DNA of 64,000 nt from Eledone cirrhosa (Eukaryota), in assembly GCA_964016885.1 (NCBI GenBank), contig OZ024744.1, forward strand, positions 55,862,001-55,926,000, in the 5' to 3' direction. Each line of letters begins with the position of its first letter. The first letter of the stretch is position 1. Both the position numbers and the translations under genes were made by a program. Below are positions 9,998 to 43,531 of this stretch, piece after piece. The notes beneath the pieces are model-generated. The model made no database searches and was not told where the DNA came from. It was given only the letters and a program-made list of their open reading frames with translations.

Positions 9998-10102
9998 ATA
10001 TAAATATATATATACATTATATACATATATAAATATATATATATACATTATATACATATATAAATATATTCATATATATATACACAAATATATATATATA
10101 TA

Positions 10103-10424
10103 CACATGGATTAGTGGTTAGAGCATTGGCCTTGCAATCGAAAGGTTGCGAGTTCAATTCTCAGACCGGGTGATGTTTCCTTGAGCAAGACACTTTATTT
10201 CACATTGCTCCAGTTTACTCAGCTGTAGAAATGAGATGATAGGGACTGGGGTCCCTATCATTCCACAGCAAAGTGGTTGTGGAGGTGCCACGGCAAAAAA
10301 GCACCCAGCACTCACTGTAAATGAGGTTGGTGTTAGGAAGGGCATCCAGCTGTAGAAATCAAGCCAGAATCAGTTCCTGTCCACCCTTGCAAGCAGGGAA
10401 AAGCGGACGTAAAATGATGATGAT
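10103..10424 (+). mobile_element. tRNA-derived SINE (family S3) with RTE-derived tail
   Basis: A box TAGTGGTTAGAGC, anticodon-like arm CCTTGCAATCG and B box GAGTTCAATTCTC. The 3' half matches RTE 3'UTRs and ends in (GAT)n. A second copy lies at 41726-42033(-). Confidence 0.88.
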
Positions 10425-10617
10425 ACATTATATATACATTATATAAATATATATATACATTATATACATATATTTATATATATATTTATATATATGTATA
10501 TAATATATATTTATATATATGTATATAATATATATATATATTTATATAAATGTATATAATATATATATATATTTATATATATGTATATAATATATATATA
10601 TATTTATATATATGTAT

Positions 10618-15080: not shown

Positions 15081-18000
15081 ACATTACATACATATATAAA
15101 TATATATGCATTATACATATATAAATATATATGCATTATACATATATAAATATATATGCATTATACATATATAAATATATATGCATTATACATATATAAA
15201 TATATATGCATTATACATATATAAATATATATGCATTATACATATATAAATATATATGCATTATACATATATAAATATATATGCATTATACATATATAAA
15301 TATATATGCATTATACATATAAATATATATACATTATACATATATAAATATATATACATTATACATATATAAATATATATACATTATACATATATAAATA
15401 TATATACATTATACATATATAAATATATATACATTATACATATATAAATATATATACATTATACATATATAAATATATATACATTATACATATATAAATA
15501 TATATACATTATACATATATAAATATATATACATTATACATATATAAATATGTATACATTATACATATATAAATATGTATACATTATACATATATAAATA
15601 TGTATACATTATACATATATAAATATATATACATTATACATATATAAATATATATACATTATACATATATAAATATATATACATTATACATATATAAATA
15701 TATATACATTATACATATATAAATATATATACATTATACATATATAAATATATATACATTATACATATATAAATATATATACATTATACATATATAAATA
15801 TATATACATTATACATATATAAATATATATACATTATACATATAATATATATACATTATACATATAATATATATACATTATACATATAATATATATACAT
15901 TATACATATAATATATATACATTATACATATAATATATATACATTATACATATAATATATATACATTATACATATAATATATATACATTATACATATAAT
16001 ATATATACATTATACATATAATATATATACATTATACATATAATATATATACATTATACATATATATATGCATTATACATAAATAAATATGCATTATACA
16101 TAAATAAATATGCATTATACATATATAAATATATATGCATTATACATATATAAATATATATGCATTATACATATATAAATATATATGCATTATACATATA
16201 TAAATATATATGCATTATACATATATAAATATATATGCATTATACATATATAAATATATATGCATTATACATATATAAATATATATGCATTATACATATA
16301 TAAATATATATGCATTATACATATATAAATATATATGCATTATACATATATAAATATATATGCATTATACATATATAAATATATATGCATTATACATATA
16401 TAAATATATATGCATTATACATATATAAATATATATGCATTATACATATATAAATATATATGCATTATACATATATAAATATATATACATTATACATATA
16501 TAAATATATATACATTATACATATATAAATATATATACATTATACATATATAAATATATATACATTATACATATATAAATATATATACATTATACATATA
16601 TAAATATATATACATTATACATATATAAATATATATACATTATACATATATAAATATATATACATTATACATATATAAATATATATACATTATACATATA
16701 TAAATATATATACATTATACATATATAAATATATATACATTATACATATATAAATATATATACATTATACATATATAAATATATATACATTATACATATA
16801 TAAATATATATACATTATACATATATAAATATATATACATTATACATATATAAATATATATACATTATACATATATAAATATATATGCATTATACATATA
16901 TAAATATATATGCATTATACATATATAAATATATATGCATTATACATATATAAATATATATGCATTATACATATATAAATATATATGCATTATACATATA
17001 TAAATATATATGCATTATACATATATAAATATATATGCATTATACATATATAAATATATATGCATTATACATATATAAATATATATGCATTATACATATA
17101 TAAATATATATGCATTATACACATATATGCATTATACACATAAATATATATGCATTATACACAAATATATATGCATTATACATATAATATATATGCATTA
17201 TACATATATAAATATATATGCATTATACGTATATAAATATATATGCATTATACGTATACAAATATACATGCATTATACGTATATAAATATATATGCATTA
17301 TACGTATATAAATATATATGCATTATACATATATAAATATATATGCATTATACATATATAAATATATATGCATTATACATATATAAATATGCATTATACA
17401 TATATAAATATGCATTATACATATATAAATATGCATTATACATATATAAATATGCATTATACATATATAAATATGCATTATACATATATAAATATGCATT
17501 ATATATATATATAAATATGCATTATATATATATAAATATGCATTATATATATATAAATATACATATATAAATATATATGCATTATACATATATAAATATG
17601 CATTATACATATATAAATATGCATTATATATATATAAATATGCATTATATATATATAAATATGCATTATATATATATAAATATGCATTATATATATATAA
17701 ATATGCATTATATATATATAAATATGCATTATATATATATAAATATGCATTATATATATATAAATATGCATTATATATATATAAATATGCATTATATATA
17801 TATATATATGCATTATATATATATATATATGCATTATATATAAATATATATGCATTATATATATATAAATATATATGCATTATATATATATAAATATATA
17901 TGCATTATATATATATAAATATATATGCATTATATATATATAAATATATATGCATTATATATATATAAATATATATGCATTATATATATATAAATATATA

Positions 18001-19498
18001 TGCATTATATATATATAAATATATATGCATTATATAAATATAAATATATATGCATTATATAAATATAAATATATATGCATTATATAAATATAAATATATA
18101 TGCATTATATAAATATACATATATGCATATATACATATATAAATATATATGCATTATACATATATAAATATATATGCATTATACATATATAAATATATAT
18201 GCATTATACATATATAAATATATATGCATTATACATATATAAATATATATGCATTATACATATATAAATATATATGCATTATACATATATAAATATATAT
18301 GCATTATACATATATAAATATATATGCATTATACATATATAAATATATATGCATTATACATATATAAATATATATGCATTATACATATATAAATATATAT
18401 GCATTATACATATATAAATATATATGCATTATACATATATAAATATATATGCATTATACATATATAAATATATATGCATTATACATATATAAATATATAT
18501 GCATTATACATATATAAATATATATGCATTATACATATATAAATATATATGCATTATACATATATAAATATATATGCATTATACATATATAAATATATAT
18601 GCATTATACATATATAAATATATATGCATTATACATATATAAATATATATGCATTATACATATATCAATATATATGCATTATACATATATCAATATATAT
18701 GCATTATACATATATCAATATATATGCATTATACATATATCAATATATATGCATTATACATATATAAATATATATGCATTATACATATATAAATATATAT
18801 GCATTATACATATATAAATATATATGCATTATACATATATAAATATATATGCATTATACATATATAAATATATATGCATTATACATATATAAATATGCAT
18901 TATACATATATAAATATATATGCATTATACATATATAAATATGCATTATACATATATAAATATATATGCATTATACATATATAAATATGCATTATACATA
19001 TATAAATATGCATTATATATATATAAATAAATATGCATTATACATATATAAATATGCATTATATATATATAAATAAATATGCATTATACATATATAAATA
19101 TGCATTATATATATATAAATAAATATGCATTATACATATATAAATATGCATTATATATATATAAATAAATATGCATTATACATATATAAATATACATTAT
19201 ATAAATAAATATGCATTATATATATATAAATATGCATTATATAAATAAATATGCATTATATAAATAAATATGCATTATATATATATAAATATGCATTATA
19301 TATATATAAATATGCATTATATATATATAAATATGCATTATATATATATAAATATGCATTATATATATATAAATATGCATTATATATATATAAATATGCA
19401 TTATATATATATAAATATGCATTATATATATATAAATATGCATTATATATATATAAATATATATGCATTAATATATATAAAATATATGTATATATATG
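15081..19498. repeat. ~4.4-kb AT-rich minisatellite (25-bp unit TATACATATATAAATATATATGCAT, with 21- and 22-bp variants)
   Basis: Period read directly from the sequence; homogeneous blocks of GCAT or ACAT variants and of shorter units. Confidence 0.97.
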
Positions 19499-28768: not shown

Positions 28769-30222
28769 TCTGTGCTTGATAATTCTGTCACTAACCACCT
28801 CAATTACCTTATCTATCCACTTCTCAGCTAATGGAATACCTACTCCTCCTATTCCATCATCACTTCTTACTTAGAAAAGCATCTATTTATGCTGTTTACC
28901 TGTACAGAGTCATGCTGAGGTGCCTCTTCATCTCACCACTTGAACACAGCATTAGCCACTTGTCGCTTCTCAAGCAACTCCATAATTTCTCTGGATCTAC
29001 ATGCCAAAGTGCCCACATTGAGAGTGGCAGCCTTGAGATGTGCTACCCGATATGATGATTAGGTCTGTTTGTAGTATGGGTGTGTGATTGCTTGATGACG
29101 ATCGAGGAGTTCTAGCATATGGCTAGGTTAACCACCCCACTACCGTGCACAGCACTAACTTAATTAGTGTTAGTCCTGTATACACAGTTAGTATGAATCT
29201 GATATTCTGCACTGGTCATAGTGTTTGGCAAAGTTTTTCTGGCTAGATGCCCTTCCTACTACCAACCACTTTACAGCATTGACAGTATTTCACCGTGCCA
29301 CCAGCTCTAGAGAGTTTGTCTGACAAGACTGAAGAGTCCTCTCTACTCTGTTCATTATAATTTAAAACGACTGTTTTCATAGACGGGCTGCCTTCACTAA
29401 GACTTGAAGGGCCTATGTCTACCCCATGCTGTATTTGATGTGACTGTTGTCCTAGACACTTGTCCTTCACTGTGGCTTATAGAGCCCATGTCTATCCTAT
29501 GTATACACATGTATAGATTTATATTTTTACTGTATCCATCATGGCATTTCAATTGGCCTTAGAAATGCTTGGAGGTGCACATCTTTCCCAGCATCTTTTC
29601 CCTCACTAAGTTTAGCCTGCAAGTTATAGGCAAGTGACTGAAAAAATGTCCCAGAGCTAAAAGTGAGAATCATGTGAAAACCGGTGAACCTGTCTAACAC
29701 TAAGAATGCTGTTGCCAGACATTAAGGTATTCTGTGTAGCTAAACACCACAGTTTTGAGATAATGTTTCTTCAAATCCTGGATAATGTTATGTCCAAAAT
29801 TACAATAATGTTTCTTCAAATCATTTCACTTTAGTTTCAAAGGAACATTAGACAACACTATGTCCAGTATAGAAATAACATTTCTTTAAATAGTTTTACT
29901 TTACTTCCAAAGAGACAGCAGGTAATGGCATGTCTAGTTTACTCATGACTGTCCTAGACAAATAGATATTTAGAGGGAGTGGGAGAGAGAACGAGAGAGA
30001 AATCAGTAGTTATATGAAATGTACAGCGTCGTAGAACAATAAAGTAAGTTAAGTGATAGAAGGATGGATGGATAGATTGGGTGGCATGACATAATTACAG
30101 AGTACAATAGTAAGGTATAGTAAATAGGTTTAATGAAGTTAAATTATATTAACTAACAAATAACTCTAGACTTTGAAACTTGCTGTTGGATAGGTTGTTC
30201 ACTTTCGGATTGTGTATATGTG

Positions 30223-30273
<51 letters not shown>

Positions 30274-30290
30274 ATATATATATATATATG

Positions 30291-30396
30291 GAACTTGTTT
30301 TGGCAATACATATACTAAAATTGAAACGATACCGAGAAGATTAGTATGGCCTTGCACAAGGATGACACACAAATTCGTGAAACGTTCCATATTTTT
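30291..30396 (+). pseudogene. U6: Full-length U6 snRNA retro-pseudogene
   Basis: GAACTTGTTTTGGCAATACATATACTAAAATTGAAACGATACCGAGAAGATTAGTATGGCCTTGCACAAGGATGACACACAAATTCGTGAAACGTTCCATATTTTT aligns end to end with metazoan U6. The ACAGAGA box is mutated to ACCGAGA and the AGC triad to AGT. The upstream sequence is (TA)n rather than a PSE/TATA promoter. Confidence 0.95.
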
Positions 30397-31866
30397 ATCA
30401 CAACAAAAAAGCACCCAGTCCACACTGTAAAGTGGTCATATAGGTGTCATGACAAAAAGCATCCAGTCCACACTGTAAAGTGGTCATATAGGTGTCATGA
30501 CAAAAAGCATCCAGTCCACACTGTAAAGTGGTCATATAGGTGTCATGACAAAAAGCACCCAGTCCACACTGTAAAGTGGTCATATAGGTGTCATGACAAA
30601 AAGCATCCAGTCCACACTGTAAAGTGGTCATGTAGGTGTCATGACAAAAAGCATCCAGTCCACACTGTAAAGTGGTCATATAGGTGTCATGACAAAAAGC
30701 ATCCAGTCCACACTGTAAAGTGGTCATATAGGTGTCATGACAAAAAGCATCCAGTCCACACTGTAAAGTGGTCATGTAAGTCTCATGACAAAAAGCATCC
30801 AGTCCACACTGTAAAGTGGTCGTGTAGGTGTCATGACAAAAAGCACCCAGTCCACACTGTAAAGTGGTCATATAGGTGTCATGACAAAAAGCATCCAGTC
30901 CACACTGTAAAGTGGTCATGTAAGTCTCATGACAAAAAGCATCCAGTCCACACTGTAAAGTGGTCATGTAGGTGTCATGACAAAAAGCATCCAGTCCACA
31001 CTGTAAAGTGGTCATATAGGTGTCATGACAAAAAGCATCCAGTCCACACTGTAAAGTGGTCATGTAAGTCTCATGACAAAAAACATCCAGTCCACACTGT
31101 AAAGTGGCCATATAGGTGTCATGACAAAAAGCATCCAGTCCACACTGTAAAGTGGCCATGTAAGTGTCATGACAAAAAGCATCCAGTCCACACTGTAAAG
31201 TGGCCATGTAAGTGTCATGACAAAAAGCATCCAGTCCACACTGTAAAGTGGTCATGTAGGTGTCATGACAAAAAGCATCCAGTCCACACTGTAAAGTGGC
31301 CATGTAAGTGTCATGACAAAAAGCATCCAGTCCACACTGTAAAGTGGCCATGTAAGTGTCATGACAAAAAGCATCCAGTCCACACTGTAAAGTGGTCATG
31401 TAGGTGTCATGACAAAAAGCATCCAGTCCACACTGTAAAGTGGCCATGTAAGTGTCATGACAAAAAGCATCCAGTCCACACTGTAAAGTGGCCATGTAAG
31501 TGTCATGACAAAAAGCATCCAGTCCACACTGTAAAGTGGTCATGTAGGTGTCATGACAAAAAGCATCCAGTCCACACTGTAAAGTGGCCATGTAAGTGTC
31601 ATGACAAAAAGCATCCAGTCCACACTGTAAAGTGGCCATGTAAGTGTCATGACAAAAAGCATCCAGTCCACACTGTAAAGTGGTCATGTAGGTGTCATGA
31701 CAAAAAGCATCTAGCCCACACTGTAAAGTGGTCATATAGGTGTCATGACAAAAAGCATCCAGCCCACACTGTAAAGTGGTCATGTAGGTGTCATGACAAA
31801 AAGCATCCAGTCCACACTTAAGTGGCCTAGGAGGTGACATGACAAAAAGCACCCAGCACACTGTAA
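30397..31866 (+). repeat. 48-bp tandem array (~30 units) derived from an RTE 3'UTR module
   Basis: Unit GACAAAAAGCATCCAGTCCACACTGTAAAGTGGTCATATAGGTGTCAT. The same module occurs in 2-3 copies in RTE 3'UTRs (e.g. ~28510-28635, 41270-41350, 52730-52870). Confidence 0.97.
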
Positions 31867-32005
31867 CTGTGGTTGGCGTTAGGAAGAGCATCCAGCCATA
31901 GAAACCTAGCCATAAACAGTTCTATATAATCAAAATATGGTCATCTGACCTGACTTGCCTCAAATGGGCGTTAAATGATGATGATGATGATGATAATGAT
32001 GATGA
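31867..32005 (+). mobile_element. RTE 3'UTR terminus with (GAT)n tail, closing the U6 chimera
   Basis: GGTTGGCGTTAGGAAGAGCATCCAGCC...CGTTAAATGATGATGATG; part of the terminal stem-loop is deleted. Confidence 0.88.
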
Positions 32006-41725: not shown

Positions 41726-42033
41726 ATCATTTCATTTCACGTCCGCTTTTCCCTGCCTGCAAGGGTGGGATGGGAACTGATTCTGGCTTGATTTCTACAG
41801 CTGGATGCCCTTCCTAACACCAACCTCATTTACAGTGAGTACTGGGTGCTTTTTTTCCATGGCACCTCCACGACCACTTTGCAGTGAAATGATATGGACC
41901 CCAGTCCCTATCATCTCATTTCTACAGCTATAAAGTGTCTTGCTCAAGGAAACAACATCACCTGGTCTGAGAATTGAACTCACAACCTTTCGATTGCAAA
42001 GCCAATGCTCTAACCACTAAGCCGTGTGCCTCC
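41726..42033 (-). mobile_element. SINE family S3, second copy
   Basis: Reverse complement of 10103-10424 with a small internal deletion. Confidence 0.88.
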
Positions 42034-43531
42034 ATGTAAATGCATTTATATCTATCTAGGAACTTTCCAACAATTTTATGTAAAGAAGCTTTGTTAAATT
42101 ATACTCCAAATACTAACTTAGTTATATTACAAAATCCCTGCAAATTCTTGATTTTTTAAATTATTTGGATCTCACAAGCATTGTCTTTTATTAGAAATAT
42201 GATAATGAAAGGGTTCATTTGTTTTTGCAAAACAGGCCACATAGCTTAGTCAAAATAATTTATTTCATACTGTAAAGTTGGATGCTTATTTATCTATTTT
42301 TTTAACTGCTTATATAGAAGCTCAACAAATAGTTTTTTTTTTAATTTTTAGTGGATGTATTTAATTTCTTAAATTGAATTTCTGTGCAATAGGAAAGATA
42401 TTGTTGCAAAGGAAATAAAACCAAAGGGTGTTGGTGCTGAATAGGATAAAAACTTCAGAAATGAAATTGTAGCCTACTAAAAGGAATATGTATGGTGTGT
42501 AACTTGAGAGAATTAAGTAAACATGAAATTCTTGGAGAATAAAATTAATTTCTACAGCATGTGTTTTGTGTGTTGGCTGTGGCAGCAGCATTACATTTTG
42601 GAAGGATATATGGGGCAATGGAAAATGTTTGGTTATGTTGTAAAGTGAATTGTAAATTATTTACACACATTTTTTTCTTCTATCTAATATTATTAGTTTC
42701 TGTTATATAAATACATCTAGACTGAGTTGTATATGTGAGAAGGGTGAAGGAAGTTAGCATTCCATATTTATATTATTTTTGGATTATTCTATATAAGGCC
42801 ATATGAAGCTTGTGCAGGGGTTGGGGCAAGGCAAGGGTGGTGGTGGTGTGTATAGCATGTGTTATAGAGGGAGTGGAAAGACTGAATATTTTGTTCTTTT
42901 TTATAAAATCCTATTTCATTAAATTATAATTATTTCAATGTATTCAGTTGTATGTTTGAAGAATCAATGGGTATAAAGATCAGCTGGCTGGAATGGAAGC
43001 ATAATCAAAATAAATACAAGGGTTCCATTACATAAAGACATGTGGACTAGTGGTGTGGTTTCATGAGGTTGTGAGTGATTCCTGAACCTGGCAACACGTG
43101 TCTTTCAGCAAGAGGCTTCATTTCACGTTGCTCCAGTCCACTCAGATGAAAAAAATAGAAAAAAAATAAAGGATAACAATCACCAGCTGTAATAGCTAGA
43201 TGTTAAGCCCTGCAACAGAATTGGCATCTGGTTAAGAGATGGTGAGCAGGGGGGATTTAGACTGTCTTGCCAATGTGGTTTCATGTGGTATAGGACGTTA
43301 AAAGTTATCAATCCTAAAACCACAAAACTTAAATCGTACATTACATGAATTCACAATTTTATAGCATTGTTATTTAAGCAACTAAGATGTTCAAATTAAA
43401 TATTTCCTCCTAATAACATATCAAAGTTAATGACTGAAACACTTGCATTTCTTTGCTGAAGACCTGCTATCCAGCTCTCCTCAGATTTTCTTACCACTAT
43501 AACAAAGTGAATGTGTTTTTATGGTCTAATG

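What the first reader, a model, noticed from the sequence alone, without database searches (positions are those of the whole stretch)
30291..32005. U6 snRNA-RTE LINE chimeric retrocopy (U6 head + RTE 3'UTR + GAT tail) in an invertebrate
Seen: a complete U6 copy ends in exactly five T's and is fused without a spacer to RTE 3'UTR sequence. That sequence runs through the 48-bp array into the RTE terminus and (GAT)n tail, and the 5' flank is a (TA)n tract like those of the RTE insertions here. Established: mammalian U6/L1 chimeras have this geometry (full U6 joined at its U-tail), attributed to RtcB ligation of U6 or to RT template switching. Inference: the same process operates with an RTE-clade LINE here. 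If the structure is multi-copy it would be a U6-headed SINE-like family. I am not aware of U6/RTE chimeras in molluscs, but cannot check.
Basis: partly seen in the sequence, partly recalled or inferred. Interest (0 to 1): 0.8.

Follow-up and report, generated by a model that had tools for sequence, protein, structure and literature searches.

The report
U6 RNA fused to RTE retrotransposon
A decayed copy of the splicing RNA U6 is joined directly to the tail end of an RTE-like jumping gene, likely pasted in as one piece when the element's copying enzyme picked up U6; dozens of similar fusions with several jumping-gene families lie in this probably-octopus genome, a known kind of accident in a host where I found no report of it.

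Summary
The structure is real. A full-length, decayed U6 copy (30291-30396, five terminal T's) is joined without spacer to the 3'UTR of an older RTE-like subfamily, then a 30-unit 48-bp array and a (GAT)n tail. It is not a SINE: this junction is single-copy. It belongs to a recurrent class: 69 of 107 dispersed U6 copies examined have a LINE or SINE directly after the U-tail, all 69 in sense, against 5 of 606 after random T-runs. Partners: RTE 15, two CR1-like families 30+5, an REL-type LINE 4, tRNA-like SINEs 15. Heads come from two U6 gene types, and some siblings have target duplications; this locus has none. The array likely grew after insertion; 2 of 29 U6-free relatives carry similar arrays. 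U6/RTE chimeras are already reported in lizard and opossum (PMC4476161), and this scan noted snRNA-LINE chimeras in a tunicate and fungi; I found no mollusc report. Mechanism: one-step chimera about 0.9; template jump favoured over RtcB ligation, unresolved at this locus. New member of a known kind.

The parts
30215..30290 (.). (TA)n tract abutting the U6 5' end; replaces the octamer and TATA-like elements seen upstream of intact U6 genes
   Evidence: a TA run abuts U6 in 18 of 52 chimeras scored
30291..30396 (+). Full-length, decayed U6 snRNA retrocopy ending in five T's; closer to the C9/C5 gene type (11 substitutions) than to the C19 array type (14); ACAGAGA box and AGC triad each carry a substitution
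30397..31842 (+). RTE-like 3'UTR starting at the first 48-bp unit, expanded to 30 units with a higher-order pattern; likely expanded after insertion
31843..31974 (+). Unique part of the RTE-like 3'UTR (88-91% identical to the 29 closest genomic relatives over 31868-31968), with a deletion of about 36 nt near 31967 between two short identical words; the missing part is present in nearly all relatives
31975..32005 (+). (GAT)n tail of the RTE-like element
   Evidence: a contig of run X1 joins this repeat to the 3' flank

Best explanation
A full-length U6 copy is fused in sense to a 5'-truncated RTE-like 3'UTR, and was likely inserted as one chimeric retrocopy, most likely because the RTE reverse transcriptase reached the end of a broken RTE RNA and jumped onto the U-tail of a mature U6 RNA. 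Inferred steps: priming at the (GAT)n tail; copying of roughly 300-450 nt of 3'UTR; jump to U6 and copying to its 5' end; joining to the target at a TA-rich site. Later, and also inferred: point decay, loss of about 36 nt before the tail, and growth of the 48-bp unit from a few copies to 30. The copy is predicted to be inert: it has no U6 promoter and mutated catalytic motifs. One-event chimera about 0.9 in all; template jump 0.55, RNA ligation 0.33.
For: Shown: exact spacer-free junction. 69 of 107 dispersed U6 copies have a sense partner within 15 nt, 0 antisense (Fisher p 1e-40 against distal flanks). T-run is 5 in 40 of 69 and 4-6 in 59 of 69, whereas three intact genes have 7-10, fitting trimmed RNA. 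None of 107 copies shares upstream sequence with the genes. Non-TA target duplications of 6 bp or more around U6 plus partner in 10 of 52 chimeras against a shuffled mean of 2.7, maximum 7. U6 and partner divergence correlate (rho 0.64, n 19, p 0.003). For a jump rather than ligation: 13 of 15 SINE partners start at their 5' end, where a Pol III transcript would not carry the 5'-OH that RtcB needs (requirement in PMC6789731); 15 of 26 CR1-like junctions with a readable anchor carry 1-6 extra bases (counted by eye), and an R2 reverse transcriptase needs non-templated additions to jump (PMC8857657); 28 of 30 U6 junctions on that CR1-like family lie where 14 of 30 U6-free copies also end.
Against: No target-site duplication at this locus (best 3 bp), so a single event here rests on the class. 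This junction and at least 11 of 15 RTE junctions are clean, and full-length U6 with five T's is the geometry that PMC6789731 attributes to RtcB ligation in human cells. Single extra bases could be mutations or flanks of the source transcripts. Some of the 10 duplications overlap SINE-tail sequence. The sample holds only U6 copies with an intact 3' end, and 38 of 107 had no library partner within 15 nt. RTE-clade status rests on architecture, not on a tree.
Confidence: 0.55

Rival explanations
1. RtcB-type ligation joined U6 (2',3'-cyclic phosphate end) to a cleaved RTE RNA with a 5'-OH, and the chimeric RNA was then retrotransposed as one template.
For: Clean junction, full-length U6 and five T's at this locus; at least 11 of 15 RTE junctions clean; three RTE chimeras share one exact junction, as a preferred cleavage site would give; shown for U6/L1 in human cells (PMC6789731 passages).
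Against: 13 of 15 SINE partners joined at their 5' ends and extra bases at 15 of 26 CR1-like junctions fit ligation poorly; the 3' end chemistry of U6 in this animal is untested. The two routes may both operate.
Confidence: 0.33
2. Two independent insertions: an RTE inserted at the T-run of an existing U6 pseudogene, or U6 landed at the 5' end of a truncated RTE.
For: No target duplication here; RTE 3'UTRs are dense in this window (38 sense hits of 600 random positions).
Against: 69 sense to 0 antisense; only 5 of 606 random T-runs are followed by a sense partner; on the U6 5' side only 9 of 107 have a neighbour; U6 (about 11%) and tail (9-12%) are similarly diverged.
Confidence: 0.07
3. The element is a copy of a U6-headed SINE family with a master locus.
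For: 28 of 30 U6/CR1-like chimeras join within a few bases of one point, and 3 of 15 RTE chimeras share an exact junction; an Octopus vulgaris repeat annotation lists one 'U-L1' SINE family of 52,753 bp (sequence not seen).
Against: This junction occurs once in the genome. CR1-like chimeras have heads of both U6 gene types, 9 and 7, varying T-runs and junction bases, and sit on a truncation point shared with 14 of 30 U6-free copies; 2803 exact copies of that tail exist. No promoter travels with the copies.
Confidence: 0.04

Closest known systems
Group IV snRNA/non-LTR chimeric pseudogenes of non-L1 clades: U6/RTEX-2 (Anolis), U6/RTE_Mdo and RTESINE1 (opossum), U6/L2 and U6/Mon-1 (platypus), U6/CR1 (turkey); PMC4476161, sections 10 and 11 read
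   Same: U6 3' end fused in sense to the 3' part of a LINE or its SINE; many heads 5'-truncated; short or no target duplications; several clades in one genome.
   Different: Invertebrate host (probably an octopus, inferred); larger set (15 RTE plus 4 RTE-tailed SINE chimeras against 3 in lizard); an REL-type partner not listed in those sections; many near full-length heads (32 of 69 start at U6 nt 1-18); expanded 48-bp array.
Mammalian U6/L1 chimeras (PMC6789731 passages; PMC11838501 passages)
   Same: Full-length U6 ending in a short T-run joined to a variably truncated LINE in sense (98.3% sense in human).
   Different: Partner is RTE-like with a (GAT)n tail, not L1 with poly(A); no 6-19 bp target duplication at this locus; RtcB route untested here.
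SINEU (U1/U2-headed SINEs of crocodilians; PMC4494074, section 19 read)
   Same: snRNA-derived 5' part on a retroposed element.
   Different: SINEU has master copies and no abundant LINE sharing its tail; here the tails belong to abundant LINEs and the junctions are independent.
RTE-2_OV of Octopus vulgaris (PMC9115989, section 6 read)
   Same: Endonuclease, RT and zinc finger in one reading unit, with a 3'UTR made largely of repeats, as in the LINEs of this window.
   Different: Its sequence was not seen, so identity with the subfamily here is untested.

Membership tests
Group IV U6/non-LTR chimeric retropseudogene | U6 copy with intact 3' end and short T-run | tested here: met
   Whole Rfam model, five T's
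Group IV U6/non-LTR chimeric retropseudogene | Direct sense fusion to a 5'-truncated LINE 3' end with its tail | tested here: met
   Exact junction to first 3'UTR unit; (GAT)n tail
Group IV U6/non-LTR chimeric retropseudogene | No flanks of the source gene | tested here: met
   No upstream similarity to three intact genes
Group IV U6/non-LTR chimeric retropseudogene | Target-site duplication around both parts | tested here: inconclusive
   None at this old, TA-flanked locus; 10 of 52 siblings have one, shuffled mean 2.7
Group IV U6/non-LTR chimeric retropseudogene | Empty orthologous site lacking both parts | tested here: inconclusive
   No listed piece from the two other organisms covered the unique 3' flank
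RTE-clade LINE (partner) | AP-endonuclease plus RT upstream of this 3'UTR, simple-repeat tail | tested here: met
   Exo_endo_phos_2 (E 7e-6, just under cut-off), RVT_1 and PHD in window LINEs; 7 of 29 closest tail relatives have the C-terminal coding region upstream on the same strand
RTE-clade LINE (partner) | RT phylogeny inside the RTE clade | not tested
   No clade-labelled reference among the hits; the label rests on architecture and recalled motifs
snRNA-headed SINE (SINEU-like) | Many copies sharing one junction and a master | tested here: not met
   Junction single-copy; siblings from two U6 gene types
snRNA-headed SINE (SINEU-like) | No abundant LINE sharing the 3' end | tested here: not met
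   2650 candidates for this tail; 1782 and 2803 exact motif copies for two sibling tails
Functional U6 gene | Intact ACAGAGA box, AGC triad and upstream promoter | tested here: not met
   Both motifs substituted; octamer and TATA-like elements absent
RtcB-ligated U6 chimera | U6 cyclic-phosphate end, 5'-OH partner, chimeric RNA before insertion | not testable with these tools
   Needs RNA chemistry or RNA reads

The most novel reading that the evidence does not exclude
In this genome U6 is a general acceptor for nearly every retroelement enzyme (RTE, two CR1-like families, an REL-type LINE and perhaps Penelope-like elements), caught by end-to-end jumping without RtcB, and the U6 plus 65-nt CR1-like tail fusions or the three identical U6-RTE junctions are a U6-headed SINE lineage being born.
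Probability: 0.12. Interest if true: 0.7.

Novelty: new member of a known kind. Interest (0 to 1): 0.38.

Why it matters
The single locus is an inert fossil. The set it belongs to extends U6/LINE chimera formation to an invertebrate with RTE-like, CR1-like and REL-type partners, and gives a natural sample of 69 junctions on which template jumping and RtcB ligation make different predictions (full-length SINE partners, extra bases, a fixed short CR1-like acceptor). Such fusions are the proposed route by which stringent LINEs give tails to new SINEs.

Tried and rejected
SINE family with this junction: 1 match genome-wide. Target duplication at this locus: none above 3 bp. Array as part of the chimera's origin: rejected, 2 of 29 U6-free relatives have 32 or more units and most have 0-7. 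Sequencing runs: no RNA holder listed; X4 and X5 hold a small share only; laying the 3' side was swamped by repeats, gave one X1 contig across tail and flank (X1 may be the assembly's own sample) and no orthologous piece; the U6-side junction was not checked against reads. Rfam scan of 16 loci for hammerheads: none among the 150 of 188 rows shown. Folding of three LINE 3' ends and the window's tail: z from -0.5 to -1.9, not significant. Pfam gave no family for the REL-type ORF; that label, and 'CR1/Zenon-like', 'tRNA-like SINE' and 'Penelope-like', are read from recalled motifs. Bacterial promoter scan is irrelevant. Two near matches (L196, L197) are not U6 and were dropped. Literature searches without a mollusc or cephalopod U6 chimera: (0 papers); the library lacks most subscription papers.

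Full report
Observation. Rfam finds one RNA family in the window: U6 at 30295-30396, + strand, 88.2 bits, whole model. Against an intact gene of the same genome the copy starts at U6 nt 1 (30291) and differs by 11 substitutions (9 transitions, read off the alignment) and one deleted base; the ACAGAGA box and the AGC triad are each hit. It ends in five T's. A (TA)n tract lies upstream (30215-30289), a 48-bp array of 30.5 copies downstream (30406-31866), then a (GAT)n tail (31975-32005).

The partner. The unit and the tail match the 3' ends of many LINE copies in the window. Those LINEs encode an endonuclease, an RT and a PHD-like finger, the layout described for the octopus element RTE-2_OV (PMC9115989, section 6). 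The closest 29 tail relatives fetched are 88-91% identical, and 7 of 29 have the C-terminal coding region directly upstream. In that subfamily the first 48-bp unit begins with the bases that follow the U6 T-run here, so the junction has no spacer. RTE-clade status is inferred from architecture; no tree was made. The host is probably an octopus: 3.0 Gb assembly, and of the two animal-named RT hits the closer is Octopus vulgaris at 71%. This is inference.

Genome-wide test. A U6 3'-end pattern gives 200 matches at up to one mismatch, at least 33 of them in a tandem gene array on C19. I fetched 110 loci from the listed rows: three intact genes and 107 dispersed copies; unlisted rows were not seen, and 3'-truncated copies are excluded by design. 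Against a library built only from U6-free repeat copies, 69 of 107 have a partner starting within 15 nt of the T-run, all in sense: 30 CR1/Zenon-like, 15 RTE, 11 tRNA-like SINE, 5 of a second CR1-like family, 4 REL-type LINE, 4 of a SINE with an RTE tail (family names from recalled motifs). Controls: 9 of 107 on the U6 5' side; 41 sense and 30 antisense of 636 distal positions; 5 sense of 606 after random T-runs. Of the other 38, three look like older RTE tails aligning from 19-26 nt and many are palindromic TA-flanked elements.

One event from RNA. T-runs are 5 in 40 of 69 chimeras against 7-10 in the genes; human mature U6 typically ends in five U's (PMC6789731 passages). None of 107 copies carries gene upstream sequence. 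Non-TA duplications of 6 bp or more enclose U6 and partner in 10 of 52 scored chimeras, against 2.7 on shuffling; some overlap SINE-tail letters, and this locus has none. U6 and partner divergence track each other in the CR1-like set (rho 0.64, n 19).

Not a SINE. The window's junction is unique. The 15 RTE chimeras use 13 junctions, about 50-530 nt from the tail; three share one exact junction, where 1 of 30 U6-free copies also ends. The CR1-like chimeras cluster at one point (28 of 30), but so do 14 of 30 U6-free copies, and their heads derive from both U6 gene types, 9 and 7. By the criteria used for SINEU (PMC4494074, section 19) these are independent chimeras. An O. vulgaris annotation lists one 'U-L1' SINE family (PMC13282606 passages and one supplement row); its sequence was not seen and may be such a set.

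The array. Its units differ by 4.3% on average and show a repeating three-unit pattern, against about 11% decay of the U6. Most relatives have 0-7 unit hits, while 2 of 29 without U6 have at least 32. The array is therefore likely a later expansion of an unstable 3'UTR repeat, unrelated to U6. About 36 nt before the tail are missing; I infer that this removes part of the end that the RT recognises.

Mechanism. Template jump (0.55): 13 of 15 SINE partners are joined at their 5' ends, where RtcB's need for a 5'-OH would not be met; 15 of 26 readable CR1-like junctions carry extra bases, and jumping by an R2 RT requires non-templated additions (PMC8857657 passages). RNA ligation (0.33): this junction and at least 11 of 15 RTE junctions are clean, with the human U6/L1 geometry. 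The genomic data do not decide between them for this locus, and both may operate. Two separate insertions 0.07; SINE copy 0.04.

What is known. PMC4476161 (passages and sections 10, 11) reports U6 chimeras with RTE-like elements in lizard (3) and opossum, with L2 and Mon-1 in platypus (40) and with CR1 in turkey. PMC11838501 was seen in passages. Buzdin 2002, Bibillo and Eickbush 2004 and Malik and Eickbush 1998 were seen only as reference entries. Eight searches found no mollusc case; subscription papers are not covered. Earlier notes of this scan describe snRNA-LINE chimeras in a tunicate, fungi and a mammal-like genome (unchecked).

Verdict. Real, correctly read, and a new member of a known kind; the broad, countable set of partners in an invertebrate is the part worth following. 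Interest 0.38.

Noticed in passing
G000:C19:31778857-31840331 (L011-L030): Tandem array of at least 33 intact U6 genes at about 1.8-kb period with a variant 5' stem; this type is the head of many chimeras.
   Followed up: partly
L091-L120; 2803 exact motif copies: A CR1/Zenon-like LINE whose copies often stop about 65 nt from the 3' end (14 of 30), at the 5' foot of two predicted hairpins; suggests a discrete short RNA mobilised on its own.
   Followed up: partly
L006, L033, L045, L049-L051, L053, L055, L064, L066, L077, L082, L149, L156, L165, L166, L168, L173, L179: U6 pieces joined to palindromic, TA-flanked elements, several with an inverted second U6 piece; a hammerhead-like motif (by eye) precedes the junction point in U6-free copies L099 and L112, and a Penelope-like RT fragment lies beside one family in L213:2470-3027 (one search gives only RT-type leads). 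Possible U6 capture by Penelope-like elements.
   Followed up: partly
L039, L158, L171: Three U6-RTE chimeras at unrelated sites share one exact junction; hotspot or small master lineage.
   Followed up: partly
L235, L238: U6-free RTE copies whose 48-bp 3'UTR unit has grown to 32 or more copies: the RTE 3'UTR seeds minisatellites.
   Followed up: partly
window 10095-10430 (+) and about 41770-42036 (-): tRNA-like SINE whose 3' part is RTE 3'UTR with a (GAT)n tail; also found as a U6 partner.
   Followed up: partly
window 15088-19496: AT-rich 25-bp tandem array of 185 copies right after an RTE tail.
   Followed up: no
L145, L062, L004, L073: U6 chimeras sitting at or close behind the tail of another RTE or SINE copy, giving three-part look-alikes; nested insertion or double jump.
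   Followed up: no
P0001: The closest RT homolog (79%) is labelled as from a Herbaspirillum metagenome bin on a 1.5-kb contig; likely animal DNA in that bin.
   Followed up: no
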